This document shows, one piece after another, positions 7,780 through 55,591 of a DNA stretch of 64,000 nt (the first letter of the stretch is position 1; each line of letters opens with the position of its first letter). A program made the translations under genes and the position numbers. The stretch is from a virus (Duplodnaviria > Caudoviricetes): IMG/VR virus record IMGVR_UViG_3300037313_001869, positions 371,219 through 435,218 of that record; one strand, 5' to 3'. The notes beneath the pieces were generated by a model. That model did no database searches. It had not been told where the DNA came from and worked only from the letters and a program-made list of their open reading frames with translations.

Positions 7780-7851
7780 GGGGGAGAGACGAGCGGGAGG
7801 GGGGCTTTTTTCCAAAAAAGCCTTCCCCAGGGGGGTGTACTGGAGGGGGCG

Positions 7852-8526
7852 ATGCGAAACGCTCTTCCCGTCAAGCCGGCGGAGTGGCCCGAGCGGGCCT
7901 ACAAGCTGGCGTACGTGAGCCCGTCCTGGGGCCCGGAGGGGTCTAGCCGAGACCTCTCGGACCTGATGAAGCTTCCGGTGCCGAGCCTGCTCCTGCCGCC
8001 CGCGGTGGTGCTTCTCTGGGTACCTGGGGGCAAGCTGGAGGAGGGGCTGGATCTGCTCTGGGGGTGGAAGCTCCATTACCGGGGGGTCGCGTTCGTCTGG
8101 GTGAAGACCGACAGCAAGGGGGTACCTCTCGGGGCGCACGGGCCGAGGCCGACGGTCTCTTCGAGGGGGTCAACCGAGCTTGTGCTGGCGGCCGAGACGG
8201 GGCCGGAATACGTGCTCGCGGGATCGACCGAGAAGAGGGGCCGGCCCTTGCCCATCGTGGACGAGACCGTGGGCCAGGTGGTGATGGCCCCTGTAGGTCC
8301 TCGGCCCCCGGAGGTGCGAGCGAGGATCGAGCGCATGTACGGCTCGGCCGTCTCTCGGGTCGAGCTGTTTGCGCCGGGCGAGGTACCGGGGTGGGACGTA
8401 TGGGCCCCCGGGGCCGCGGTGGTGGTCTCGGCTCCTTCTCGGGAGGGGGCGGAAGAGAAGCCTGCCCCCCAGGGCGGGACCGAGAAAGAGGGCTTCGAGC
8501 TGGCGATGGGCCTCGACGATGAGTGA
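7852..8526 (+). CDS. MT-A70-family methyltransferase-like protein, catalytic motif degenerate
   Basis: LLWV, WG..Y...FVWVKT, TELVL, RIERMY..RVELFA..GWDVW; DPPW position reads SPSW. Confidence 0.75.
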   Translation: MRNALPVKPAEWPERAYKLAYVSPSWGPEGSSRDLSDLMKLPVPSLLLPPAVVLLWVPGGKLEEGLDLLWGWKLHYRGVAFVWVKTDSKGVPLGAHGPRPTVSSRGSTELVLAAETGPEYVLAGSTEKRGRPLPIVDETVGQVVMAPVGPRPPEVRARIERMYGSAVSRVELFAPGEVPGWDVWAPGAAVVVSAPSREGAEEKPAPQGGTEKEGFELAMGLDDE

Positions 8527-8848
8527 AGAGACCCCGAAGCCCCCGATGCGAAAGGGCGACCGCTACCGGGTGCGGGCTCCGTACGGGGGCTGGGCCGAGG
8601 GCCAGGTGATGATCGTCTCGGAGGCCCGGGCGTGGGGCGGCTGGCTCGGGGGCTTCCGGGTGCAGCTCATGGGGCAGGAGCAGCGAGGGGACCTCTTCTT
8701 CGAGATCAGCGTCACCTTGAAGACGACCGAGGCCGTGGCGGCGTGGCAGGAGAAATGGGAGCTACTGCCCCGGGCCAAGCGAAAGAGCCCTTCCCACCGG
8801 GCCTACGGGCGAAGGGTCAAGAGCCGCTTCGAGAGGGTGCTCGGGTGA
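8519..8848 (+). CDS. RFxR-tail protein (SH3-like start)
   Basis: ends KSRFERVLG. Confidence 0.65.
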   Translation: MSEETPKPPMRKGDRYRVRAPYGGWAEGQVMIVSEARAWGGWLGGFRVQLMGQEQRGDLFFEISVTLKTTEAVAAWQEKWELLPRAKRKSPSHRAYGRRVKSRFERVLG

Positions 8849-9096
8849 GACTGCCCAGGATGGGCGCTTGCTTTCAGCTCGTCCGGCCCTTCGGGGGCTG
8901 GACGGTGGGCGAGAGGGTCGAGGTCGGCGCCATCAACGACGGCTACGTCTGGCTCTGGACCTACCCCGAGGTTCTCAACCCCTACGGCCACCGGGACTGG
9001 ACCGCCTGCGTGCCCCTGAAGGGGTGGCTGAAATGGGTGAAGCCCTGGAGAGAGGTCCCCCTGCCCACCCGGTACGAGCGGGTGCTCAGCGGGTGA
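8845..9096 (+). CDS. RFxR-tail protein
   Basis: ends PTRYERVLSG; PFGGW segment shared with previous gene (PYGGW). Confidence 0.65.
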   Translation: MRLPRMGACFQLVRPFGGWTVGERVEVGAINDGYVWLWTYPEVLNPYGHRDWTACVPLKGWLKWVKPWREVPLPTRYERVLSG

Positions 9097-9274
9097 GGTC
9101 GGCCAGGCGCTCGCGGGCGTAGGCCGTGGCCTCCTCCAGGGTAGCCCAGGGCGGCGGCTCCTCCTCGCCCGCGAGCAGCCGGTCGAGGGTCTCTTGCCAG
9201 TCGAGCCGGATCTCCTCGTCCGAGGGGCAGTCGCAGGCGAGGGCGTTGCAGTTGGGGGCGTGGGAGGTCTTCAT
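9086..9274 (-). CDS. hypothetical protein
   Basis: 62 aa ORF. Confidence 0.55.
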   Translation of the reverse strand: MKTSHAPNCNALACDCPSDEEIRLDWQETLDRLLAGEEEPPPWATLEEATAYARERLADLTR

Positions 9275-9283
9275 GGCTAGGGC

Positions 9284-9730
9284 CTAGACGACCGGGCGCT
9301 TCGGCTTTTTCCACACCTTGGGCTGCGCCGCGTACCAGGCCCGGGCCTGGTCGAGCAGCTCGTCGGTGATGACCCGGGTGTCGTAGATGCTCCGAAGCTC
9401 CCGGGCCGTCTCGAAGGTCATCACCTGGTCGGCCCCGTCTCCGAGCTTGAACGTCTCGCCCCCGAGGTCGCAGAGCAGGTCGTCGTTGTCGTCCTGGTAG
9501 AAGCGCGGGCCGACGAGCCTCGCCTCGAAGACCTCGCTTGCGGGCTCGCCGAAGGCCGTGTAGCCCGAGCGCTCCAGGCGGACCCCGAGAAGGACCGCCT
9601 CCCTCGGGGTGAGCCGGTCGATGCGGGCCAGGAGCGCCTCCAGCACCTTGTGGTTGCCCTTGCGCCAGGCCCGCTCCCATTCGGCCCCGATGGCGCTCAC
9701 CAGGTCCTCGACCTTCTCTTCGGGGCTCAC
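9284..9730 (-). CDS. hypothetical protein
   Basis: shares L(T/D)PREA motif with 9727..10014. Confidence 0.65.
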   Translation of the reverse strand: MSPEEKVEDLVSAIGAEWERAWRKGNHKVLEALLARIDRLTPREAVLLGVRLERSGYTAFGEPASEVFEARLVGPRFYQDDNDDLLCDLGGETFKLGDGADQVMTFETARELRSIYDTRVITDELLDQARAWYAAQPKVWKKPKRPVV

Positions 9731-10014
9731 GGGCTATCCTCGCCTTCCCGCCCCGCCATCATCTTCGCCCGAAGGTCGGCCGTCACGGGCTCGAAGATGC
9801 GGGCCCGGAGCGCCTGAAGGGCCTCGGGCTTGGCCAGGTGCGACGCCTCCCCCAGGGCGAGGCCGAGGGCGAGGGCCTCGCGGGGGTCCAGCTTGCCGAG
9901 GTCCTCGACGAGGGCGTCCATGCCCTCCTGGTAGTCCGTCTCGTAGGCGTGGTCCCACGAGCGGACGAGGGCGGCGGCCCACTCGCGGGGGGCCTCTTGG
10001 GTCTTCTTGGGCAT
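9727..10014 (-). CDS. hypothetical protein
   Basis: GGAGAG RBS; GTGA overlap. Confidence 0.65.
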   Translation of the reverse strand: MPKKTQEAPREWAAALVRSWDHAYETDYQEGMDALVEDLGKLDPREALALGLALGEASHLAKPEALQALRARIFEPVTADLRAKMMAGREGEDSP

Positions 10015-10047
10015 GGTTGGCTCTCCTTGGGGTTGGGGGTGGGAAGC

Positions 10048-10284
10048 TCAGCGGGCGGGCTGGACGAGCTGGAACTTGGCCTCGTCGAGCCTGCCGCCCT
10101 CCTGACGGATGCCCACCCAGCCGTCGTGGGTCATGTACTCGGCCACGCCCGCGAAGGCGGCCTCGACCCCGTCGGGCCGGTACTCGACCCGCTGGCCGAG
10201 GGGGAAGAGCACCGAGCCGCGCGAGGTCTTGCACGAGGTCAGGTTGTGCTGCGAGGCGATGGGCTTGGGGTAGGTCTTTTCCAT
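10048..10284 (-). CDS. hypothetical protein
   Basis: GTCAAC-N16-CGTCT plus GGAG RBS upstream. Confidence 0.6.
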   Translation of the reverse strand: MEKTYPKPIASQHNLTSCKTSRGSVLFPLGQRVEYRPDGVEAAFAGVAEYMTHDGWVGIRQEGGRLDEAKFQLVQPAR

Positions 10285-10326
10285 GGTGTCTCCGAGACGG
10301 GGCGAGAGGGCGAACGTTGACAAGGC

Positions 10327-10581
10327 TCAGCTACGAAGGGCCCGGTCCCACACGTCCAGCTCCTCGATGAGCACGCGCGTGGCTTCCTCGGCCGTGGGCC
10401 CCTCGCTGTGGATCGCGTGGGGCTTCTTCCGACGGGAGTTCTTCAGGGTGACCGAGACGGTCATGGACACACCGAGCCGGCTGATGCACACCATGGGGTC
10501 GCCCGCTTGGGCGAGGCCCTCATGGGCCGAGAGGGCGGCTTCGAGCTTCTTGACGTAGGGGAGGATGTCTTCGGGGCGCAT
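10327..10581 (-). CDS. hypothetical protein
   Basis: GGAAAA-N16-CGTCC upstream. Confidence 0.65.
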   Translation of the reverse strand: MRPEDILPYVKKLEAALSAHEGLAQAGDPMVCISRLGVSMTVSVTLKNSRRKKPHAIHSEGPTAEEATRVLIEELDVWDRALRS

Positions 10582-10669
10582 GGTGTTCTCTAGGACGCTC
10601 GGGGGCCCGGGCTTTTTCCGAAAGAAAGGGGCCCGCTCGCCCTGCACGAGCGAGGGGCCCCGGGGGCTC

Positions 10670-11305
10670 TCAGGCCGCCTTTTTGGCGCGGCTCTTCTTG
10701 GGGGCCGGGGGCACCGGAACGTGGTTCTTGGCCCCGAGGTTGCGGCTCCGGTCCTGGTAGAGCGCCGTGTCGTGGCGCTTGACCTCGAACTCGTTGCCCA
10801 CGAGGGCGCCGAGCTGACGGGCCGAGAGGGGCAGCTCGTAGCGGCCCTCGACCAGGCTCGCGAAGAACTGCGTGTAGAGGCTCTTGCGGAACTCGCTCCG
10901 GAAGGTCTTGGTGCGGAGCAGGTCCGCGAGGCCCATCTTCTGCCCCGTGGGCAGCTTCAGGAAGACCCGCTGGACCTTCTCCGGCCAGGTCGGGCAGACC
11001 CCGCAGCCCCACACCCACTTCCAGGCGACGCGGTTCGCCACCCACTCTTCCACGCTAAGCCAGTGGGGGAGCACCACCTCGTTCACCTCGTAGACGTGCC
11101 CCTTGGTGAGCATGTCGTTGTCCCACGACACGCAGTAGTTCTCGACCTCCTGGAGGAGCGCCTCGTCCTCGCCCTCGACGAAGAGGCGGACGGGGTCGGG
11201 CGCGGTGGTGATGTTCTCGCCGTTGCGACGGAAGAGCACCTTGTGGGTGACGAGGACGGTGAGCGAGGCGTTGAGGGCGGCGGCGAGGAAGGAGAGGTTG
11301 CTCAT
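10670..11305 (-). CDS. hypothetical protein
   Basis: 211 aa; GGAAAA-N16-CGTCT plus GGGAG RBS. Confidence 0.75.
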   Translation of the reverse strand: MSNLSFLAAALNASLTVLVTHKVLFRRNGENITTAPDPVRLFVEGEDEALLQEVENYCVSWDNDMLTKGHVYEVNEVVLPHWLSVEEWVANRVAWKWVWGCGVCPTWPEKVQRVFLKLPTGQKMGLADLLRTKTFRSEFRKSLYTQFFASLVEGRYELPLSARQLGALVGNEFEVKRHDTALYQDRSRNLGAKNHVPVPPAPKKSRAKKAA

Positions 11306-11351
11306 GGTGCTCCCGAGACGGCTGGGGCCCGACCCTTTTTCCGAAAAAGAA

Positions 11352-11648
11352 CTAGGCGACCCGCCTGACCTCGACCCCCGCCACGATCCGGCGCTCGCCC
11401 ACCAGCACGAGACCTGCGACCGCAAGGCTCCTCTCCTCGGCCCCGAGACCGATGGAGTCGAACAGGTCGGAGAGGAGCAGGGTCACCCCTCCGACTGAGA
11501 CGGTGACCAGCCGGGCCCAGACCCGTTCGAGCGCCCTCACCTCCTCGTCGGGGTAGGGCGGCCCGGGCAAGAGCCGGTTCCGGGCCTGGCTGATGGAGTT
11601 CGTGAGGGCCCAGAGAAGGGCCCGCCTCTCGACGGGGTCAATGTCCAT
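11352..11648 (-). CDS. hypothetical protein
   Basis: 98 aa ORF. Confidence 0.45.
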   Translation of the reverse strand: MDIDPVERRALLWALTNSISQARNRLLPGPPYPDEEVRALERVWARLVTVSVGGVTLLLSDLFDSIGLGAEERSLAVAGLVLVGERRIVAGVEVRRVA

Positions 11649-12081
11649 CAGCGCACTCCCTAAAAGCGTTGTAGTTCATCTCGGCCTCCATGGCCTCGAC
11701 ACGGTAGGCCCGTGCCTGCTCGTGAAGGTGTACCCCAGTGGGCCCCTCCAAAGCCTCGGCCTTCTGCGTTCGGTCCAGGTAGACCATGTACGAGCACAGC
11801 TCGGGCCCAAGGTGGAACCACTCCCCTCGGTGCCGGTGAGCCTCGAAGCGCTCGTGAAGCTTGCGCTCCTCTCGCTTACCCCCGGGCACGACCAGCATCA
11901 GGTGCAGGGGGAAGGGGTTGCCGATGGCCAGGCTCGCGAGACGCTGCGAGACCACGGCGGCGAACCCGATCTTGACGTAGGGCCCGCAGACCACCCAGTA
12001 GACCCCGGCCTGCGAGCCCGGTACCAGGGGCTTCAGTTGCTCCGCGTACCCGAGGGCCCGCAGCGTTTCGAGTCCGTCCAT
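11638..12081 (-). CDS. T5orf172/MUG113 (GIY-YIG-like) domain protein
   Basis: VY...YVKIGF..RLASL..GNP..EERKLHERF..R.RGEWF. Confidence 0.8.
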   Translation of the reverse strand: MDGLETLRALGYAEQLKPLVPGSQAGVYWVVCGPYVKIGFAAVVSQRLASLAIGNPFPLHLMLVVPGGKREERKLHERFEAHRHRGEWFHLGPELCSYMVYLDRTQKAEALEGPTGVHLHEQARAYRVEAMEAEMNYNAFRECADGH

Positions 12082-12086
12082 GGCCC

Positions 12087-12407
12087 CTACCGTACCCGCC
12101 TGACCTCGACATGGCCCGGGCCGAGGAAGCACACCCGGTGGATGGGGAGGGTGAGCAGCTCGACCACGTCCGACTCGCTGAGGTCGGGGTTCGCCTCGAA
12201 GACGCTGGCCAGGGTACAGGGCTCGCCCCCGTCGACCCTGACGAGGTAGAGCTGAGCCAGGACCCTCCGGAGGGCTTCGCGCCGAGCCACGGCCCTCTTG
12301 CCCCCGTTGGGCCGGCGCACGGCCTCGTCCGCCCAGTCGAGGGCGTCCGCTACCGCATCCCGCAAAGCCACCTCTTGCTCTTCTGTGAGCGTCAGCCTCA
12401 GCTCCAT
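12087..12407 (-). CDS. hypothetical protein
   Basis: TGATG coupling at 12407. Confidence 0.6.
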   Translation of the reverse strand: MELRLTLTEEQEVALRDAVADALDWADEAVRRPNGGKRAVARREALRRVLAQLYLVRVDGGEPCTLASVFEANPDLSESDVVELLTLPIHRVCFLGPGHVEVRRVR

Positions 12408-12703
12408 CAGCCAAGCCCTCCCTTGCACGTCACCAGCGACGGCCCGCACCTCAGCCCGTCCCGGTGCAGCTCGTCGAGCCCCCCGGGCATGTGCCCCGCG
12501 ACCAGCTTCCCGTAGATCCCGTGGTCCCGCCCGATGGCCTCCCCGTCCCGGGGTAGGAAGTAGGCCCGGAGACCGAGGGCCCGCATTGCCCCAGCAAAGC
12601 CCTCGGCGGACTCCTCGTCGCCGAAGGTCATCTGAGCCACCGAAGGCCCGTGGAACAGACCCGACCTCCCCGGCTCGTAGCAGATCATCACATGCACCAT
12701 CAC
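12407..12703 (-). CDS. hypothetical protein
   Basis: GTGA overlap; AGGAAGG RBS. Confidence 0.55.
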   Translation of the reverse strand: MMVHVMICYEPGRSGLFHGPSVAQMTFGDEESAEGFAGAMRALGLRAYFLPRDGEAIGRDHGIYGKLVAGHMPGGLDELHRDGLRCGPSLVTCKGGLG

Positions 12704-13011
12704 CCTTCCTCCTCTCCGCATGAGCAGCAGCCCTGGCACTCGCCGCACCCGTCACACGAGGGCGGTACCTCCCCGCAGTTGGGGCACATACCCCTCTCCC
12801 CCTCGGGGCTGACCGCAGCGAGCTTCTCCCCGAGGTCCACGAGCTTGCGGTAGACCCCGACGTAGAACGCCTTCTCGTCCTCGCTGCCGGCCGCCTCCCG
12901 GCCCTTGCGGGTGAACTGCATCGAACGGCCCACCCCCGCCTGGAGGAGCTTCAGCTCTTCCTCGGTCACCCGGAGGGTCAGGAGCTTCGGTGTCTGTTTG
13001 CTTGTGGCCAT
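12700..13011 (-). CDS. hypothetical protein with Cys-rich C-terminus
   Basis: GGAAAA-N16-CGTCTAG upstream. Confidence 0.65.
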   Translation of the reverse strand: MATSKQTPKLLTLRVTEEELKLLQAGVGRSMQFTRKGREAAGSEDEKAFYVGVYRKLVDLGEKLAAVSPEGERGMCPNCGEVPPSCDGCGECQGCCSCGEEEG

Positions 13012-13057
13012 GGATGTCCTAGACGAGCGAACGGCCCGTCTTTTTCCTGAGAAACCC

Positions 13058-13396
13058 CTACACCACCTTGACGTGGGCGAACTCTTTCTCGATGGCCTCG
13101 GCCCCCGTGACCAGCTCGCCCAAGAGCCCGTGAAGCAGCTTCATCGTACCCGGGCCCGTGGTCATCCCCACCGTGTAGATGACCGCCCGCACCCTCCGGG
13201 CCAGCACCGAGACCTCGACGTGCATCCGGTAGCCCCACGCCCGGACCTCCAGCCCCGCCACCCCGCACCGGCCGTACGCCTCGTAAGCCCCCTCTCCCTG
13301 CTTCACCACCGAGAGAGCCCGGCCCATCCGGTCGAGGCTCTCGGCCGCCCGCATCACCACCCGCGCGTCCCCATGTACGATCTCTTCCAAGGTCAC
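13058..13396 (-). CDS. hypothetical protein
   Basis: GGAAAA-N16-CGTCTAG and GGAGG RBS. Confidence 0.65.
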   Translation of the reverse strand: MTLEEIVHGDARVVMRAAESLDRMGRALSVVKQGEGAYEAYGRCGVAGLEVRAWGYRMHVEVSVLARRVRAVIYTVGMTTGPGTMKLLHGLLGELVTGAEAIEKEFAHVKVV

Positions 13397-13712
13397 ACCT
13401 CCAGGGGGCTAGACGATCGGGGGCTCAGGCTTTTTCCAAGAAAGAAGAGCCCCGGGCGGGCCCGACCTCACCTTTCCAGCCACATCAAAAAGAAAGGGCC
13501 CGCCCGGGGCTCTTCTCCCCCGCTCTTTGGCACGCCAACAGCGCCACGAGAACGGCCCGTCCTGGCCGTTTCCCCGAAAATACGATCCCGGTCTCGTCCC
13601 GAGGTTCGACGCCTTGGAAGAGATCCTGGCGGGACCATTTCTGCCCGCGAGGCGCCTCGGAGAACCGCGCAACCGCGTTTGGTTTCCGACCCCCTGGCCC
13701 GAGCCTGCCCCC

Positions 13713-46906: not shown

Positions 46907-47029
46907 TCATGAAGCTGACCTACACCGGCAACCCGTACAGACACCGACGACCAGCCCGTGCCGGTACCTCAGGGTCACGAACATCCGGCGGCAGGCCGTG
47001 CAGAAGAAGTCGACGGGCAGCCCGTTCAT
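46907..47029 (-). CDS. tiny Zn-finger protein
   Basis: CTAC..CTGC; ATGA overlap. Confidence 0.4.
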   Translation of the reverse strand: MNGLPVDFFCTACRRMFVTLRYRHGLVVGVCTGCRCRSAS

Positions 47030-47772
47030 GGCTTCGCCAGCTCGTACCACCGGGCCGAGAGCATCCGGGCGTAGCTCACCGGCGGCAGGCCGTAGTGCCC
47101 GAAGCTGAAGGCGTGGTTGAACTCGACCAGCACCGTCCTTCCATCGGCGAGCACGGCGAAGTCGAGCAGATACGCCTTCGGGGCCTTCTTGCCCATGGCC
47201 GCGACGGCCGCCTCGACCGTCTCCCGGTTCGGCGCCTTCGACCAGTCGCCCTTGTAGAGCCGGCAGCCGATGATCTGACGGTAAAGCACCATGCAACGGT
47301 ACTCAGCCACCATCTCGACCGGCTCCGACAGCCACACGGGCGTGTCATCGTCGTGGGTCACGATCCGGCGCCGGGACGCCGCGTCGGCTTGCCCACCCCA
47401 GCAGAAACCTGTAAACGCCTTGTGTTCCAGCGGTTTTACGAAGATCGGGTCGATGCTCGCCCGTACGTCGCTCAGCGTCCCCCGCCAGACCCGGCGGCCG
47501 AGGAACGGTTGGAGCGGCGAAGGGTAGTCGTCCGGGTCGGGGATGGGGCGCCCGAGCTTCAGGAGCCCGGCGTGAACGTCTCCCAGGTACCCGACGATAC
47601 CGACCTCGGGGCCGAGGTCTTCGAGCCTCAGAAGATCGTCAACCCAGTAGAAGGGCGCGACCTCGATCCCGAGGGTCGTGAAGCCCACGAGGGCCTGCGC
47701 CATCATCTCGGTCTCGGGGTAGTTCTCCCGGTGCCGGATGTAGACCTTCCGAAGCTCAACGTCGCTTGCCAT
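47026..47772 (-). CDS. ATP-grasp domain protein (DUF4343-like)
   Basis: IFVKP..KAFTG, EYRC, LDFAV..GRTVLVEFN..SFGHYG. Confidence 0.8.
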   Translation of the reverse strand: MASDVELRKVYIRHRENYPETEMMAQALVGFTTLGIEVAPFYWVDDLLRLEDLGPEVGIVGYLGDVHAGLLKLGRPIPDPDDYPSPLQPFLGRRVWRGTLSDVRASIDPIFVKPLEHKAFTGFCWGGQADAASRRRIVTHDDDTPVWLSEPVEMVAEYRCMVLYRQIIGCRLYKGDWSKAPNRETVEAAVAAMGKKAPKAYLLDFAVLADGRTVLVEFNHAFSFGHYGLPPVSYARMLSARWYELAKP

Positions 47773-47789
47773 GGTTCGAGTTACACCGC

Positions 47790-48248
47790 TCAGGGGCGGC
47801 TGGGCCTGAGGGCCTCGGGGAGCTGACCCCAAGCATCAGCTTCAACACGCACGACTAGATAGGACGCCCCTCTCAGGGTGGTCTTCTCGCGAGACACGGC
47901 CCAGGACGAGCCCAGGATAGTGACGGTCCGGCGGTCTTCTTCAGGCGCAAGAAAAAGGAAGTGGGTGCCTCCCCTCCGAGCGGCAGCCTCGGCGGCCTCA
48001 GCATGGGCCTCTTCGAGCCTTGTGCTGCTCCAGTGGCTTGATGCCGTGATCGTCAGCGTGCCGATGGGCCTGGCATTTGCCCCATCGAGGGCAGCCACAT
48101 CACCTTCGTAAAAGCGAACGGCCTTCGGGGTTGAAACGGTTTTCGGTTGGGTAGCCGTCTTGGGCTGATAGCGGATTGTCCAGTAGTCTGTGCAACCAAC
48201 CGAGACGAGAGCCAAGGCCAGGACGGCGATGCGGTAGAAGCCAGGCAT
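47790..48248 (-). CDS. putative lipoprotein
   Basis: MPGFYRIAVLALALVSVGC signal and lipobox; EAAARRGGTH. Confidence 0.7.
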   Translation of the reverse strand: MPGFYRIAVLALALVSVGCTDYWTIRYQPKTATQPKTVSTPKAVRFYEGDVAALDGANARPIGTLTITASSHWSSTRLEEAHAEAAEAAARRGGTHFLFLAPEEDRRTVTILGSSWAVSREKTTLRGASYLVVRVEADAWGQLPEALRPSRP

Positions 48249-48278
48249 GGGTGGTTCTTTCCGAAAGAAAACCCCAGT

Positions 48279-48539
48279 TAAGGGCTCGGTCGGCATTTCT
48301 ACATCAAAGGGCTGGCACGTCTCGACCCGGCTGACCCCGCGGACCTTGGAAAGGGCCTTGACCTGCTCCTCGGCGACGTACCCGTAGATGCGAAGGTCCC
48401 CCCGGAACTTCCCTCCGGTATAGACCCACCAGCGGGAGGTATCGCGAAGCCCGGCCGCTTGAAGAACGGGCTCCAGGGCCCGCCTCGCTTCGGTATCAAG
48501 CGTCTTCTTGGGGTACACGCAGACGTACACGTCAGCCAT
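48279..48539 (-). CDS. small ferredoxin-like protein (proposed end at in-frame TTA)
   Basis: MADVYVCVYP..LSKVRGVSRVE..MPTEP then TTA, followed by a hairpin and the lipoprotein start. Confidence 0.65.
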
Positions 48540-48590
48540 TGGCTCTCTCAAGCGCCCCAAAAGGGGAGCTACTCACGACGATCTTTCCGC

Positions 48591-48619
48591 TCAAGCATCC
48601 CCGTGCGTAGGGGAGAGCC
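48591..48619 (-). CRISPR. single repeat (array A remnant)
   Basis: TCAAGCATCCCCGTGCGTAGGGGAGAGCC; eroded copy near 48548. Confidence 0.6.
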
Positions 48620-48805
48620 GCACGCCCCCCTACGGGGGCCTTCGCTTCTACCCAAACACTCCCGTGCTTGCGGGCTGTGCCCGCATCGATATTCCAAGCA
48701 CCCACGGGGTGCCGACCCTCGCGAGTCGGCCTTCCTCGTTCATCGGACCCTCTTACAGACGGGTAACCTCCCGAGGCTGCAAAACCGGAGCTTTTCCGGC
48801 CGAAG
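48620..48805 (-). ncRNA. omegaRNA/tracr-like scaffold copy A
   Basis: core TTCCTCGTTCATCGGACCC..GGTAACCTCCCGAGGCTG shared with copies B and C. Confidence 0.65.
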
Positions 48806-48846
48806 CTGTAAAATCCAACTGTAATCGTTCCCGAGGTACCACTCAG

Positions 48847-48997
48847 CCAAGCACCCCTGGGCGTAGGGGAGAGCCCCTCGGTCTCGACTTGCTGCACGAG
48901 CCAGGTTCCAAGCATCCCCGCGCGTAGGGGAGAACCGGGACGTTGAACGAGCCCCAGAGACACGTCTTCCAAGCATCCCCGCGCGTAGGGGAGAACC
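48847..48997 (-). CRISPR. mini CRISPR array B (3 x 29-nt repeats, 2 x 32-nt spacers)
   Basis: CCAAGCATCCCCGCGCGTAGGGGAGAACC at 48908 and 48969, variant at 48847; 61-nt period. Confidence 0.9.
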
Positions 48998-49165
48998 CCT
49001 TGCTTTCTTCGATGTTTTTGGTGTTGAACGTCTCCGAAAACCGTCGGTAACTCCCCTAGCCACACAGGGTATGAGCCCTCGCGAACCCACGTTCCTCGTT
49101 CATCGGACCCCTTTACGAGCAGGTAACCTCCCGAGGCTGCTTCACCGGGGCTTTCCCGGCTGACA
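48998..49165 (-). ncRNA. omegaRNA/tracr-like scaffold copy B
   Basis: directly downstream of tnpB; hairpins; anti-repeat at 49046-49059; CGGTGTA just upstream. Confidence 0.75.
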
Positions 49166-49173
49166 GTTCTCTC

Positions 49174-50433
49174 TTACACCGAGGGAATTTGCGTCTCCTC
49201 GACCACGGCCACTTTTTTCTTCTTGCCCTTCAGCTTGACGCTGACCCTCTTTTTGATCGGAGCAGGCTCGACAGCGGCGGCAAGGGCCCGGGCCTCGATG
49301 TTCCTGGCCGCGTTCAGGTCGGCATTCTCGGCGTGCCCGCACTTCTGGCAGGCGAAGACGGCCTGCGAGGGCCGGTTCTTTTCGTCGATGTGGCCGCACT
49401 TCGAGCACATCTGAGACGTATACGCGGCCGGCACCTCGATTACCTTCGCGCCCGTCTCGATGGCCTTGTACTTGAGCATATCGCCGAACATGCCCCAGCC
49501 GGCGTCGAGGATCGAACGGTTTAGGCCGCTCTTCTGTCGGACCTTTTTACCGGGTTTTTTCTTGGTACCGGAGGCGCTCTTCGACATGTTCTTGATGGCC
49601 AGCTTCTCGATGCCGATCGTGCCGAACGTGTCGACGTAGTGGCGGCTCTGCTCGTGGAGAAGGTGCTTGCGCTGGCGCGCGATCTTCTGCTGGATCTTCG
49701 CGACCTTCATGAGCGCCTTGTGCCGGTTGTTCGAGCCCTTCTTCTTGTGGTCGGCCTCGCGCTGGGCCCGGGCGAGCTTCTCACGCATCCGGTCGTAGAA
49801 GTGAGGGTTCTCGACCATACCCCCGGCCGAGTCGACCATGAGCTTCGCGACGCCCCGATCGATACCGACCGACGGACGAGGCTCCGGTTTGGGGTCAGGT
49901 ACCTCGATCTCAGCGGGAAAAACCGCGTACCACTCATCGACCTCACGCACGATCGAACACGACGAGAGCTTGCCCTGCATAGGCCGGTCGAGGCGGATCT
50001 CGATGAGCCCGAGGTCATCTCCCTTGCGGGCCTTCGTGACCCGGAGCTGGGCTTTACGGCCCTCTCCGGTCACCTTCCAATGTGCGGTCGTAGAGAAATA
50101 GAACTTGATGCTATTCGTCCGCTTCTTGAAGCGCGGCCTCTTGGCCAGCTTCTTGAAGAAGCGCTCCCACGCTGTGTCCAGTATCCGCGGAACTTCCTGC
50201 CGGACGCAGCATGGGATACGGGCAAGCCACGGATCGTCAGGCAGCAGCAAGGTCACTTCCTTGTTCTGCGACATGTGTGACGGATAGACCGGGTCCGTCC
50301 TCCATATACCCATGAGCCGCTGCTCATGGGCAAGATTCCAGAGACGCCGTAGCGTCCTGTCCCAACCGTAGAGCATCTTCTCCTGGGCGGGCGTCGGATA
50401 GATGCGGTACTTGAAGGTCTTTTTTACGATCAT
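49174..50433 (-). CDS. tnpB: TnpB/Cas12f-like RNA-guided endonuclease
   Basis: N-terminal KYRIYPT, RuvC-I GIDRG, RuvC-II IEKL, Zn finger CSKC/CQKC, RuvC-III NADLNAARNI. Confidence 0.95.
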   Translation of the reverse strand: MIVKKTFKYRIYPTPAQEKMLYGWDRTLRRLWNLAHEQRLMGIWRTDPVYPSHMSQNKEVTLLLPDDPWLARIPCCVRQEVPRILDTAWERFFKKLAKRPRFKKRTNSIKFYFSTTAHWKVTGEGRKAQLRVTKARKGDDLGLIEIRLDRPMQGKLSSCSIVREVDEWYAVFPAEIEVPDPKPEPRPSVGIDRGVAKLMVDSAGGMVENPHFYDRMREKLARAQREADHKKKGSNNRHKALMKVAKIQQKIARQRKHLLHEQSRHYVDTFGTIGIEKLAIKNMSKSASGTKKKPGKKVRQKSGLNRSILDAGWGMFGDMLKYKAIETGAKVIEVPAAYTSQMCSKCGHIDEKNRPSQAVFACQKCGHAENADLNAARNIEARALAAAVEPAPIKKRVSVKLKGKKKKVAVVEETQIPSV

Positions 50434-50499
50434 ATGGGTTCTCGAATCGAACAGCCCCCCTCAAAAGAGCCGCTGTTTCCCTTGCTCATGATGACCTTC

Positions 50500-50708
50500 C
50501 CAAGCATCCCCGTACCCGTGAGGGATTCCGAGCAAGTGGTGGAGACGACTGAAGCAGCCAAGCACCCCCGCACCTGTGGAAGACCCGGCTGCGGATCTGG
50601 TCAGGTCAGGGACCTCGTCCAAGCATCCCCGCACCCATGGGAGATCCTTCCGCGTCTCGATGAGGCGCTACTCGGACGACCAAGCACCCCCGCGCTCGTG
50701 GGAGATCC
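50500..50708 (-). CRISPR. mini CRISPR array C (4 degenerate repeats, 3 spacers)
   Basis: CCAAGCA(T/C)CCCCG-type repeats at 50500, 50558, 50619 and 50680 (periods 58, 61, 61). Confidence 0.85.
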
Positions 50709-50890
50709 TCTTGTTTTCTTCGGTGTTTTTGGTATCAAACGCTTCCGAAAACCGTTGGTAGCTCCCGCGAGCAGGCGTCTTTTGGGTATGGGGTGTGAGC
50801 CCTCACGAGCCCACGCTTCCTCGTTCATCGGACCCCTTTACAAGCGGGTAGCCTCCCGAGGCTGTACCGCCGAGGCTTTCTCGGCTACGC
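50709..50890 (-). ncRNA. omegaRNA/tracr-like scaffold copy C
   Basis: colinear with copy B; anti-repeat at 50757-50772; CGGTGTA at 50898-50904. Confidence 0.75.
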
Positions 50891-50912
50891 TTTTTTCTAC
50901 ACCGGTCGCGGG

Positions 50913-51830
50913 CTACGTCGAGACCGTCTCGTCTTTTTTCTCGATTTCAGATGCCCTAGCGAGCTTGACCGCCACCCGCCCTTGGTAGAGCTGCAAGGTC
51001 TCGCTCGTGCGGCTGTAGCCGACGAGGGGCTGGTTGTAGAGCGCGATGATGCGTTTTTCGTCCTCGGCGGTCATCGTGCAGGGTTCTTTGCCGTAGGAGG
51101 TCCGGATGCCCTTGACCGCGGACTCGCCGTCGATGATCCAGAGCGGATCGGAAGGGAAGGCGCGGGCGAGGATGCCGAGGCACGTATCGACCAGGCTCCC
51201 CGGGATCTTGAAGAGCCAGCGGTTGCCCTTCTTCTCGCGGAGCTGAACCTGGGTGAGGGCGATGCCCTCTTCCATAGCCGCAAAGCCACAGGTGAGAACG
51301 TGCTCGCCCTTGTAGTAGAAGAGCAGGGCGAAGGTCCCGTCGATGAACAGGTACCGCGAGCAATGATAGGCCCGGCCCACAGGGTTGAAGGCCGTGGAGT
51401 AGGTGAGCCGGATCTCGAACCCCTCCGGAGCCTGGAGAGCCCGTAGGCCGTCGAGGTGGCGGCAGAGCAGGTTGTAGTCCTTGCCCGCCCAGCCGTAGCG
51501 GTGGTGCGAGTTCGAGACCTTCCAGACGAGAAAATCGTTCTTCTCGATGTACTCGCCGGCCTTCGACATGATGAAGTCCGACATCCAGAGCTTGACGATC
51601 TCCTCTTCCGAGAAGACCCAGCGCAGGTGCTCGTAGTCGATGTTGCGCCAGTAGCGCCACTCGAAGTCTTCGGGGTCGTCGCTGATGTGGTCGACAACCC
51701 ACTTCCGGAGCCCGGTGCGAACGCGCCCGACCGGATCAGGCACCGTATCGCCGCTCTTCTCGGTCAGCTCGGGCGGGACGGGCTTGTAGTGGTAGCCGAT
51801 CTTCTGGGGGTCGATGCCTTCGAGAGTCAT
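50913..51830 (-). CDS. hypothetical protein
   Basis: 305 aa; GGAAAA-N16-CGTCTAG upstream. Confidence 0.75.
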   Translation of the reverse strand: MTLEGIDPQKIGYHYKPVPPELTEKSGDTVPDPVGRVRTGLRKWVVDHISDDPEDFEWRYWRNIDYEHLRWVFSEEEIVKLWMSDFIMSKAGEYIEKNDFLVWKVSNSHHRYGWAGKDYNLLCRHLDGLRALQAPEGFEIRLTYSTAFNPVGRAYHCSRYLFIDGTFALLFYYKGEHVLTCGFAAMEEGIALTQVQLREKKGNRWLFKIPGSLVDTCLGILARAFPSDPLWIIDGESAVKGIRTSYGKEPCTMTAEDEKRIIALYNQPLVGYSRTSETLQLYQGRVAVKLARASEIEKKDETVST

Positions 51831-51874
51831 GGTCCGCGCTAGACGATCAAAGGCCCAAGACTTTTCCGAGAAAA

Positions 51875-52234
51875 TCAGCTCGCCATGCTGGGCTGCGGGA
51901 GCCAAGCCCGGACCCACTCCCCGAAGCTCTGATCGGAGGACTTCTTCGCTACCGGCTCCCGGCCCTTCTTGCCGCCGCCCTTGTCGTCATCGTCGTCGTC
52001 CCCGGGCAGCTTCCCGCGGACTGCCGTGCTGGCGATGTTGTAGAGGCATAGGAAGGGTACCAGGGTCTTCCGCTCCTCGGGCAGCATCAGGTAGCAGGGG
52101 ATGCTGATCAGGATGGAGGCGAGCACGATCGACACGAGAGGGCGCTGGATCTTCTCGTTGATGGCCCGGGCCAGGGTCTCCAGCAACCAGAGTAGGGGCA
52201 TCATCGCTAGAGCCCAGAAGAGCAGGGAGATCAT
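51875..52234 (-). CDS. membrane protein
   Basis: three hydrophobic segments. Confidence 0.65.
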   Translation of the reverse strand: MISLLFWALAMMPLLWLLETLARAINEKIQRPLVSIVLASILISIPCYLMLPEERKTLVPFLCLYNIASTAVRGKLPGDDDDDDKGGGKKGREPVAKKSSDQSFGEWVRAWLPQPSMAS

Positions 52235-55537: not shown

Positions 55538-55591
55538 AGACGACGAGAGGCCCTGCTCTTTTCCGGAAAAGACAGAGGGCCTCGATCGTCT
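55538..55591. promoter_or_regulatory. back-to-back GGAAAA-N16-CGTCT promoters sharing palindrome TTTTCCGGAAAA
   Basis: exact 16-nt spacing on both strands ahead of the starts at 55530 (-) and 55599 (+). Confidence 0.7.

What the first reader, a model, noticed from the sequence alone, without database searches (positions are those of the whole stretch)
48548..50904. Phage TnpB flanked by three omegaRNA-like scaffolds, each leading into CRISPR-like repeats
Seen: tnpB (intact D/E/D RuvC triad) has no adjacent tnpA, cas1, cas2 or other cas gene. A ~170-nt element occurs three times (48620-48805, 48998-49165, 50709-50890); its minus-strand core is CAGCCTCGGGAGG(T/C)TACC..GGGTCCGATGAACGAGGAA. Each copy is followed on the tnpB strand by 29-nt hairpin repeats (GGTTCTCCCCTACGCGCGGGGATGCTTGG type): 1, 3 and 4 repeats, with unique spacers of mostly 32 nt. 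Established: TnpB uses an omegaRNA encoded at its 3' end, Cas12 arose repeatedly from TnpB, and 29+32-nt geometry is typical of type I-E arrays. Inference: a domesticated, multiplexed guide system (TnpB-to-Cas12 intermediate) that may borrow host I-E Cas1-Cas2 for spacer acquisition and target competing elements or host genes.
Basis: partly seen in the sequence, partly recalled or inferred. Interest (0 to 1): 0.9.

Follow-up and report, generated by a model that had tools for sequence, protein, structure and literature searches.

The report
Jumbo-phage TnpB with guide-RNA mini-arrays
A 435-kb phage carries a small transposon-type RNA-guided DNA cutter (TnpB) that has lost its transposase and sits among three copies of its own guide-RNA scaffold, each feeding a short CRISPR-like array. 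This is a clear natural example of the recently described step from transposon guide RNA to CRISPR, so it belongs to a known kind, although this particular layout looks unusual.

Summary
An intact 419-aa TnpB lies at 49174-50433(-). Three copies of a ~100-nt structured RNA core surround it, followed on the same strand by 4, 3 and 1 repeats of 29 nt. Four of the five spacers are 32 nt and the fifth is 29 nt.

The core is the omegaRNA of this TnpB clade. A covariance model built from it hits the 3' end of tnpB in more than 25 related loci, with strong covariation. Scaffolds 2 and 3 each hold an anti-repeat that pairs with positions 1-25 of their own repeat variant. Scaffold 1 has the two arms fused into a short hairpin, like a single-guide RNA. 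Relatives show the same design with 1 unit (L199), 3 (L200), 4-5 (L013) or 9 (L018), so the repeat is the duplicated 3' arm of the omegaRNA terminal stem.

The phage has no Cas1, Cas2, Cas6e, Cas7e, Y1 TnpA or serine recombinase. No protospacer and no host array with this repeat were found.

Best reading: a TranC / type V-U*-like transposon-CRISPR intermediate. The idea that it borrows host I-E adaptation rests only on the 60-61-nt period. The kind is published, and this scan noted it on other, unrelated DNA.

Everything here is computational; no expression or activity was shown.

The parts
51841..51867 (-). Phage ECF-like promoter motif GGAAA-N17-CGTCT upstream of the gene that precedes scaffold 3; candidate promoter of the whole minus-strand unit
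   Evidence: Exact match to the motif; the motif as such is not enriched at 1 mismatch (24 found against 16.6 expected). No minus-strand terminator-like site between 51300 and 48300. Its role is inferred.
50792..50891 (-). Scaffold 3 core (omegaRNA-type structured RNA), upstream of tnpB
   Evidence: Covariance model R1, 113.6 bits; compensatory changes against copies 1 and 2.
50756..50796 (-). Anti-repeat of scaffold 3 (with a ~15-nt internal loop), pairs with repeat A1
   Evidence: Duplex -33.3 kcal/mol with repeat positions 1-25; non-cognate repeats give -22.6 to -26.0 in the matrix; 4 of 300 shuffles as good. The MFE fold gives the same stem.
50709..50755 (-). Linker / leader-like segment between anti-repeat 3 and repeat A1
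   Evidence: 82% identical to the linker of scaffold 2 (family D4). Shares a TCGAAG motif next to the first repeat with L018 and L200.
50500..50708 (-). Array A: 4 degenerate 29-nt repeats (A1-A4) with spacers 50648-50679, 50587-50618 and 50529-50557
   Evidence: The 3' half GCGGGG(A/G)TGCTTGG is conserved; the 5' half varies.
49174..50433 (-). tnpB, 419 aa (P0001), RuvC triad D192/E276/D372 intact
   Evidence: Single copy in the genome.
49068..49166 (-). Scaffold 2 core, directly 3' of the tnpB stop codon (the canonical omegaRNA position)
   Evidence: R1, 111.3 bits. The same model hits the 3' end of tnpB in relatives.
49045..49074 (-). Anti-repeat of scaffold 2 (TCATACCCTGTGTGGCTAGGGGAGTTACCG), a degenerate G:U-tolerant inverted copy of repeat B
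   Evidence: Duplex -35.6 kcal/mol with repeat positions 1-25, z -4.2, 0 of 300 shuffles as good.
48998..49044 (-). Linker / leader-like segment between anti-repeat 2 and repeat B1
   Evidence: family D4.
48847..48997 (-). Array B: 3 repeats (B1 and B2 identical, B3 variant) with 32-nt spacers 48937-48968 and 48876-48907
48708..48806 (-). Scaffold 1 core
   Evidence: R1, 116 bits.
48694..48712 (-). Fused anti-repeat/repeat hairpin GCACCC-CGT-GGGTGC plus TTGG: a single-guide (omegaRNA-like) 3' end of scaffold 1
   Evidence: Read from the sequence. The same short form ending in GGCTGG occurs in two tandem units of L018.
48662..48693 (-). Candidate guide of scaffold 1 (the first 32 nt after TTGG)
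   Evidence: Position only, so inferred. No match in the phage genome.
48591..48619 (-). Solitary repeat C1 (GGCTCTCCCCTACGCACGGGGATGCTTGA)

Best explanation
This is a domesticated, non-mobile TnpB nuclease of an IS605 lineage in a jumbo phage. It is probably programmed by several guides made from omegaRNA-derived modules, which makes it a transposon-CRISPR intermediate of the TranC / type V-U* kind.

Proposed mechanism:
1. The minus strand is transcribed through scaffold 3, array A, tnpB, scaffold 2, array B, scaffold 1 and repeat C1 (inferred).
2. TnpB binds the ~100-nt structured core, which is homologous to the omegaRNA of its transposon relatives (homology shown; binding inferred).
3. In the ancestral omegaRNA the core is followed by a terminal stem-loop, a short free tail (...GCTTGG) and the guide.
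4. Here the 3' arm of that stem plus a guide has been multiplied into repeat-spacer units.
5. The 5' arm remains in the scaffold as an anti-repeat. It pairs in cis with the first repeat, giving a natural single guide, and could pair in trans with later repeats in the way a tracrRNA does.
6. Scaffold 1 has the two arms fused into a short hairpin, so it is a plain omegaRNA-type guide.
7. The loaded nuclease would cut DNA matching about 6 spacers next to an unknown TAM, using RuvC residues D192/E276/D372. The likely targets are competing mobile elements or host DNA.
8. New spacers of fixed length most likely come from an integrase supplied in trans. This last step is the weakest.
For: Scaffold is an omegaRNA:
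- Model R1, built from the three copies, hits the 3' end of tnpB on the coding strand in L013 (67 bits), L199 (73), L156 (67), L017, L026, L031, L129, L016, L200, L014 and others.
- L014 carries a Y1 TnpA next to its tnpB.
- Across 23 members 93.9% of cells are paired and 26 of 28 pairs show compensatory changes; slid controls give 39-48%.
- Within the three window copies 98.8% of cells are paired, with 7 compensatory pairs.

Anti-repeat:
- Cognate duplexes are -32 to -36 kcal/mol against about -24.5 for non-cognate pairs.
- Each scaffold pairs best with its own repeat type: B with scaffold 2, A1 with scaffold 3, and likewise in L013 and L018.
- Shuffles give z -2.8 to -4.5.
- MFE folds of six family members give the same terminal stem with a free 3' tail.

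Series of states among relatives:
- L199 has one unit, L200 three repeats, L013 four or five, and L018 nine repeats of 29 nt with 32-nt spacers.
- Repeat 3' ends equal the lineage's omegaRNA 3' end (L118 against L117; L031).

Protein and domestication:
- The window protein groups with L013, L018 and L016 (98 SH-aLRT), next to a clade of classic IS605 elements.
- The catalytic triad is intact.
- tnpB is single-copy, and the genome has no TnpA, serine recombinase or cas genes.

Published precedent for the kind: TranC (cited in bioRxiv 10.64898/2026.03.27.714800 and PMC13565253) and V-U* with the 'serial duplication of omegaRNA segments' origin (PMC10691335).
Against: - No expression, RNA-processing or cleavage data exist; every step is computational.
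- No protospacer was found for any spacer in INPHARED phages, PLSDB plasmids, IMG/VR (exact 20-mers) or the phage itself. Activity against real targets is therefore unshown and no TAM can be derived.
- Repeats A2-A4 match the scaffold 3 anti-repeat only at their ends, so trans pairing for them is doubtful.
- Array A and the L013 array are degenerate, as expected for arrays that no longer turn over.
- GC-rich sequence gives strong background duplex energies. One non-cognate pair (scaffold 2 with L013 R1) equals the cognate value for L013.
- The family alignment used for covariation was fitted to the model.
Confidence: 0.65

Rival explanations
1. The arrays are phage-borne type I-E mini-arrays that are loaded into the host's Cascade. 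The conserved element upstream of each array is a leader, and tnpB is an unrelated neighbour.
For: - 29-nt repeats with 32-nt spacers, a period of 61.
- Repeat ends GGTTCTCCCC...GGGGATG resemble I-E repeats such as the true array in L052.
- The phage has no cas genes.
- Virus-borne mini-arrays are known (cited in bioRxiv 10.64898/2026.09.14.751636).
Against: - The 'leader' is the omegaRNA of this TnpB clade and sits at the 3' end of tnpB in more than 25 loci.
- It carries anti-repeats that co-vary with the arrays.
- Repeat 3' ends follow the lineage's omegaRNA end, not a host repeat.
- The repeats' own hairpins are weak and change register.
- No reference genome has an array with this repeat.
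Confidence: 0.1
2. The locus is a relic: an IS605 remnant whose right-end / omegaRNA segments were duplicated by recombination or by insertion into an older array. It has no present guide function.
For: - IS605 elements of this clade do land in or beside arrays: L156 lies inside a 36-nt-repeat array and L052 lies beside an I-E array.
- Array A is degenerate.
- No targets were found.
- No transposase is present.
Against: - tnpB is intact with all catalytic and zinc residues.
- All three scaffold copies keep their structure through 7 compensatory changes with only one unpaired cell.
- The anti-repeats have co-evolved with their own repeat variants.
- The same layout is kept at 41-50% protein identity (L013, L018, L200).
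Confidence: 0.12
3. The RNP works as a programmable binder or regulator, or serves phage-genome maintenance or homing, rather than as an anti-competitor nuclease.
For: - Domesticated TnpB relatives acting as RNA-guided repressors are known (TldR, PMC10705468; Cas12m, cited in PMC13565253).
- No external protospacers were found.
Against: - The RuvC triad is intact, unlike in TldRs.
- No spacer matches the phage's own genome beyond 13-16 nt.
Confidence: 0.08
4. The repeats, above all the solitary C1, are RNA anti-CRISPR decoys that mimic host repeats and sequester host Cas proteins.
For: Phage-encoded repeat-like units without cas genes. That such decoys exist in phages is recalled from the literature and was not checked here.
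Against: - No host repeat of this sequence was found.
- The units are tied to TnpB scaffolds in non-identical relatives.
- The spacers are unique and of fixed length.
Confidence: 0.04

Closest known systems
TranC (transposon-CRISPR intermediate) systems, Jin et al., Cell 2025, as described in bioRxiv 10.64898/2026.03.27.714800 and PMC13565253
   Same: - A TnpB-sized RuvC effector.
- The omegaRNA/reRNA is functionally split into a tracrRNA-like part and repeat-spacer units.
- No adaptation genes nearby.
- Some members are in phages (CauTranC9).
- Fused and split guide forms coexist.
   Different: - LaTranC is only distantly related (E 1e-9, RuvC C-terminal part only), so this is a separate lineage nearest to ISDra2-type TnpB.
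- Repeats here are 29 nt with 32-nt spacers, against 32-38 bp in the clades reported in the preprint.
- There are three scaffold copies, two of them with their own co-varying repeat type.
- Dual RNA use has not been tested here.
- I could not read the Cell paper itself, so overlap with one of its clades is not excluded.
Type V-U* candidate systems and the omegaRNA arrays of Sigma-TnpB (Altae-Tran et al. 2023, PMC10691335)
   Same: - TnpB linked to arrays without cas1/cas2.
- Proposed origin by 'serial duplication of omegaRNA segments'.
- Fusion of a half repeat with the tracrRNA back into an omegaRNA, as in scaffold 1 here.
- Duplication of whole omegaRNAs for several targets.
   Different: - Sigma-TnpB is catalytically dead and linked to RpoE; this protein is intact and has no such partner.
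Cas12r-CRISPR of Thermus Lalka phages (bioRxiv 10.64898/2026.04.20.719267)
   Same: - A phage-encoded TnpB-like effector followed by a short array of degenerate 29-bp repeats with 32-33-bp spacers.
- No adaptation genes.
- Host I-E adaptation is proposed from the same geometry.
   Different: - Cas12r is 564 aa, thermophile-specific and works without a tracrRNA.
- This protein is 419 aa with clear omegaRNA-derived scaffolds and anti-repeats.
- No Lalka phage appeared among the 25 best-listed of 307 phage matches to P0001, none of which reaches 40% identity.
IS200/IS605 TnpB with omegaRNA (ISDra2; PDB 8exa, 8h1j)
   Same: - Full-length alignment (E 2e-31).
- Same catalytic triad.
- The omegaRNA lies at the 3' end of the gene.
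- Sister-clade members still carry Y1 TnpA (L014).
   Different: - No TnpA, a single copy, and no mobile-element signature.
- The guide region is multiplied into arrays.
- The RuvC-III motif is NADLN ('derived' type) rather than DRDXN.
- A 14-aa insertion is shared with Cas12n (9j09).
Cas12n (V-U4, PDB 9j09) and Cas12f
   Same: - Miniature type V effectors whose tracrRNA lies between the gene and the array.
- The C-terminal half matches Cas12n at E 2e-32.
- The PADLOC Cas12f profile PDLC01690 scores 301 bits.
   Different: - The N-terminal REC/WED expansions are lacking (419 aa against 540 aa).
- NCBIfam places it under guided_TnpB, and the Cas12f2 and C2c8 models score far below their cut-offs.

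Membership tests
TranC / type V-U* (TnpB-derived effector with CRISPR-like array) | TnpB-like RuvC nuclease with an intact catalytic site | tested here: met
   guided_TnpB 288 bits; D192/E276/D372 align with ISDra2 D191/E278/D361.
TranC / type V-U* (TnpB-derived effector with CRISPR-like array) | Adjacent array of direct repeats separated by unique spacers, on the effector's strand | tested here: met
   Arrays A (4 repeats) and B (3 repeats) plus C1; spacers are unique.
TranC / type V-U* (TnpB-derived effector with CRISPR-like array) | Guide scaffold derived from the omegaRNA/reRNA and split so that one part (tracr) pairs with the repeat | tested here: met
   The covariance model hits tnpB 3' ends in relatives. 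Anti-repeat and repeat pair, and the pairing co-varies. This is computational only.
TranC / type V-U* (TnpB-derived effector with CRISPR-like array) | DNA cleavage guided by both crRNA+tracrRNA and a single reRNA | not testable with these tools
   Needs biochemistry. Both RNA forms are encoded: scaffold 1 against scaffolds 2 and 3.
TranC / type V-U* (TnpB-derived effector with CRISPR-like array) | Loss of transposon context (no transposase, not multicopy) | tested here: met
   No PF01797 or PF00239 hit in the 435-kb genome; tnpB is single-copy.
Type I-E CRISPR array | 29-nt repeats with about 32-nt spacers | tested here: met
   Period 61 in 4 of 5 intervals. Periods of 60-61 also occur in L018, L200, L031 and L117.
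Type I-E CRISPR array | Stable conserved repeat hairpin (Cas6e substrate) | tested here: not met
   Repeat folds are -6.8 to -11.3 kcal/mol, no better than shuffles, and the A repeats fold in different registers. The true I-E repeat of L052 gives a 6-bp stem at -12.1 kcal/mol.
Type I-E CRISPR array | I-E cas genes in the same genome, or a host array with the same repeat | tested here: not met
   No Cas1, Cas2, Cas6e or Cas7e in the phage. The scan of 185,579 species genomes gave only 22 single, chance-like matches and no array. The host itself is unknown.
IS200/IS605 insertion sequence | Y1 TnpA (or a serine recombinase) and transposon ends; usually multicopy | tested here: not met
   No transposase in the genome and a single tnpB. 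Relatives L014, L052 and L156 do have TnpA.
TldR / nuclease-dead TnpB repressors | Loss of RuvC catalytic residues | tested here: not met
   The triad is intact.

The most novel reading that the evidence does not exclude
One effector is served by two diverged, co-varying tracr/repeat pairs plus a fused single guide. The arrays were born, and still grow, when a type I (I-E or I-F-like) Cas1-Cas2 of the host integrates spacers ectopically at the repeat-like terminal hairpin of the omegaRNA.

This would explain two facts together. The repeats carry the lineage's own omegaRNA 3' end, yet five separate loci (the window, L018, L200, L031, L117) share a 60-61-nt period with unique spacers. If so, the locus would be a direct snapshot of how a class 2 array arises from a transposon RNA with class 1 adaptation machinery.
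Probability: 0.2. Interest if true: 0.8.

Novelty: new variant of a known kind. Interest (0 to 1): 0.55.

Why it matters
- It is a compact (419-aa) nuclease with an intact catalytic triad, sitting on the border between transposon TnpB and type V CRISPR.
- One locus holds all three guide-RNA states: a fused omegaRNA-type guide, a scaffold joined in cis to an array, and repeats that would need the scaffold in trans.
- Together with the graded series in relatives (1, 2, 3, 4-5 and 9 units), this gives a testable natural series for the 'RNA splitting' origin of type V CRISPR.
- The two co-varying scaffold/repeat pairs offer a ready test of guide orthogonality.
- The 60-61-nt period makes the question of who supplies adaptation concrete.
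- For phage biology, it adds a jumbo phage that appears to carry a multi-guide weapon without any cas gene.

Tried and rejected
- Rfam found no family at E <= 1 over 47500-52000.
- The exact scaffold 19-mer is absent from IMG/VR.
- The arrays and scaffolds gave no hit in INPHARED phages. PLSDB plasmids gave only one chance-level hit.
- Exact 20-mers of spacers A1, A2, B1 and B2 are absent from IMG/VR.
- The L018 array has no targets either.
- All spacers against the phage's own genome gave only 13-16-nt chance matches.
- The host-repeat scan of the reference genomes gave 22 single matches. None was an array and none had a scaffold hit.
- The repeat-handle pair pattern in IMG/VR gave two hits, both G-rich or coding tandem repeats.
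- L052 at first looked like a family member with a 23-repeat I-E array. It is an ordinary IS605 with TnpA beside a true I-E array, so I rejected it as evidence.
- L016 at first looked like a locus with two scaffolds for one gene. It is two tnpB paralogs, each with its own omegaRNA.
- RNAalifold on a MAFFT alignment of the anti-repeat regions was uninformative because the arms were misaligned. I used pairwise duplexes and single folds instead.
- The contigs behind L018, L031 and L016 could not be searched for cas genes because the records are not held.
- The careful tree search did not finish in time, so only the quick tree is cited.
- ORFs overlapping the arrays have no Pfam hits.
Full report
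**What is there**

The window is the last 64 kb of a complete 435,218-bp virus record with direct terminal repeats and about 65% GC.

tnpB:
- The minus strand at 49174-50433 encodes a 419-aa protein (P0001).
- Pfam gives OrfB_IS605, Cas12f1-like_TNB and HTH_OrfB_IS605. NCBIfam guided_TnpB scores 288 bits.
- The protein aligns over its full length with ISDra2 TnpB (E 2e-31). D192, E276 and D372 fall on the catalytic residues D191, E278 and D361.
- Its RuvC-III motif is NADLN.
- It shares a 14-residue insertion with Cas12n (9j09) that ISDra2 TnpB lacks.
- It is the only tnpB in the genome.

Scaffolds:
- Three copies of a ~100-nt core lie at 50792-50891, 49068-49166 and 48708-48806, all on the minus strand.

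Repeats:
- Each core is followed, after a further 70-100 nt, by 29-nt repeats that end in GGGG(A/G)TGCTTGG.
- Scaffold 3 is followed by four repeats (A1-A4, spacers 32, 32 and 29 nt).
- Scaffold 2 is followed by three (B1-B3, spacers 32 and 32 nt).
- Scaffold 1 is followed by one (C1).

**The scaffold is an omegaRNA**

- A covariance model built from the three cores finds the 3' end of the tnpB gene, always on the coding strand, in many relatives fetched from metagenomes and IMG/VR.
- The hits include L013 (67 bits), L199 (73), L156 (67), L017, L026, L031, L129, L117/L118, L170, L016, L200 and L014.
- L014 is a classic IS605 with a Y1 TnpA beside its tnpB.
- On the 23-member alignment 93.9% of cells pair and 26 of 28 pairs show compensatory changes. 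Slid controls give 39-48%. That alignment was fitted to the model.
- Among the three window copies alone 98.8% of cells pair, with 7 compensatory pairs and one unpaired cell. All three copies therefore look to be under selection as RNA.
- Rfam has no family for this RNA.

**The repeats are the 3' arm of the omegaRNA terminal stem**

Pairing between scaffold and repeat:
- Scaffold 2 contains, just after the core, TCATACCCTGTGTGGCTAGGGGAGTTACCG. This is a degenerate inverted copy of repeat B in which C-to-T changes keep G:U pairs.
- It pairs with repeat positions 1-25 at -35.6 kcal/mol, and 0 of 300 shuffles do as well.
- Scaffold 3 has its own version, interrupted by about 15 nt. It matches the different 5' half of repeat A1 (-33.3 kcal/mol; 4 of 300 shuffles).
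- In a 4 x 4 matrix with L013 and L018, cognate pairs score -32 to -36 kcal/mol and non-cognate pairs about -24.5 on average.

The same fold across the family:
- Single-sequence folds of L199, L200, window scaffolds 2 and 3, L013 and L018 all give one long terminal stem made of anti-repeat and first repeat.
- In each fold a short free tail lies before the spacer.

A graded series of states:
- L199 (47% identity) has only this stem-loop followed by one guide. This is the one-unit omegaRNA state.
- L200 (44%) has three identical 30-nt repeats at periods 61 and 60.
- L013 (50%) has four or five degenerate repeats.
- L018 (41%) has nine 29-nt repeats with 32-nt spacers, preceded by three tandem partial scaffolds.

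Repeat ends follow the lineage:
- In the wider clade, L031 and L117 have two-repeat units at periods 61 and 60.
- Their 3' ends (GGGGATTAC, GAGCTTACC) equal the omegaRNA 3' end of their nearest array-less relatives, for example L118 in the same contig as L117.

Scaffold 1:
- It has the two arms fused into GCACCC-CGT-GGGTGC plus TTGG. This is a natural single-guide form.
- Two tandem units of L018 are built in the same way.

Tree:
- A quick ML tree places the window protein with L013, L018 and L016 (98 SH-aLRT).
- This group lies next to a clade of classic IS605 elements. The careful search did not finish.

**What is not there**

- The phage has no Cas1, Cas2, Cas6e, Cas7e, Y1 transposase or serine recombinase.
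- Flanking ORFs have no cas or defence hits.
- No other array with a 61-nt period exists in the genome.
- No spacer matches the phage itself, INPHARED phages, PLSDB plasmids or IMG/VR.
- No reference genome has an array with this repeat.
- The repeats' own hairpins are no better than shuffles.

**Mechanism**

The best-supported reading has five parts:
- One minus-strand transcript unit. A phage ECF-like promoter motif lies at 51867-51841, and there is no minus-strand terminator-like site across the locus.
- It yields TnpB together with scaffold-guide RNAs.
- The core binds TnpB.
- The anti-repeat:repeat stem and the free ...GCTTGG tail place the spacer as the guide.
- RuvC then cuts matching DNA next to an unknown TAM.

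The homology, the structure and the pairing are shown. Transcription, processing, trans pairing for later repeats and cleavage are inferred.

The fixed spacer length across separate lineages suggests a ruler-type integrase acting in trans. That this is the host's I-E Cas1-Cas2 is only an inference from geometry.

**Comparison with what is known**

- The kind is published as TranC systems (Jin et al. 2025, as cited in bioRxiv 10.64898/2026.03.27.714800 and PMC13565253).
- About 50 independent TnpB-array associations (V-U*) have been reported, with 'serial duplication of omegaRNA segments' as one proposed origin. The same work describes omegaRNA arrays and the re-fusion of a half repeat with the tracrRNA (PMC10691335, PMC12669027).
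- Phage parallels exist. Cas12r of Thermus phages has 29-bp degenerate repeats, 32-33-bp spacers and proposed host I-E adaptation (10.64898/2026.04.20.719267). A myxophage Cas12m has repeats like its host's I-E repeats (10.64898/2026.09.14.751636).
- This scan's own notes list the same kind in at least 8 other genomes. None is related in sequence to this one.
- LaTranC is only a distant relative (E 1e-9), and no isolate phage has a close homolog.

What stands out here:
- the very small, TnpB-like effector;
- three scaffold modules around one gene;
- two of those modules having their own co-varying repeat type;
- the full graded series of states among relatives.

I rate it a new variant of a known kind, of moderate interest.

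Noticed in passing
L156:880-3000 (IMG/VR contig of 297,749 bp): A complete IS605 (reverse-strand TnpA-like ORF, tnpB, omegaRNA ending GGGGTAGGTTTA) sits inside an array of ~36-nt repeats (GTAGAAACGGATGCTCCGATCCATCC..GGAGAC, period 72-76). Two repeats lie upstream and three downstream. This is a transposon caught inside a CRISPR-like array of another jumbo phage.
   Followed up: partly
L052:1-3300: An ordinary IS605 (TnpA and TnpB) lies directly beside a true I-E-type array of 23 repeats (GTATTCCCCCCGCATGCGGGGGTTATCGG, period 61). Two of about 160 loci of this TnpB group lie in or beside arrays, which may be more than chance.
   Followed up: partly
L018:3900-4130: Three tandem partial scaffold units (period 73-88) precede the nine-repeat array. 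The first two end in ..GGCTGG like the repeats and may be extra single-guide RNAs.
   Followed up: partly
window 48985-49003, 50869-50885, 50919-50931 and others (+ strand): Eight terminator-like hairpins were found against 2.8 expected, all on the plus strand, which is antisense to the locus. Several are scaffold or repeat hairpins followed by the complement of A-runs. They might block antisense transcription into the guide unit.
   Followed up: no
window 55538-55564(-) and 55565-55591(+); also 7787-13437(-): Exact copies of the phage ECF-like promoter motif GGAAA-N17-CGTCT, including a back-to-back divergent pair.
   Followed up: partly
window 47026-47832(-): ORF with an R2K-clade ATP-grasp domain (Pfam R2K_2, E 1e-39; phrog_7313), two genes downstream of the guide locus.
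   Followed up: no
P0001 residues ~286-305 (window ~49519-49578): The insertion SASGTKKKPGKKVRQKSGLN is absent from ISDra2 TnpB but shared with Cas12n (PDB 9j09: SAKGTVENPGKNVAQKSGLN).
   Followed up: no
own genome G000:C1:151620-151800 (outside the window): Tandem 60-nt units (..CCGTGGCCCCTTCCGAAAGCGAGAG.GTCTCGGA..), three or four copies. They are not CRISPR-like, and whether they are coding is unknown.
   Followed up: no
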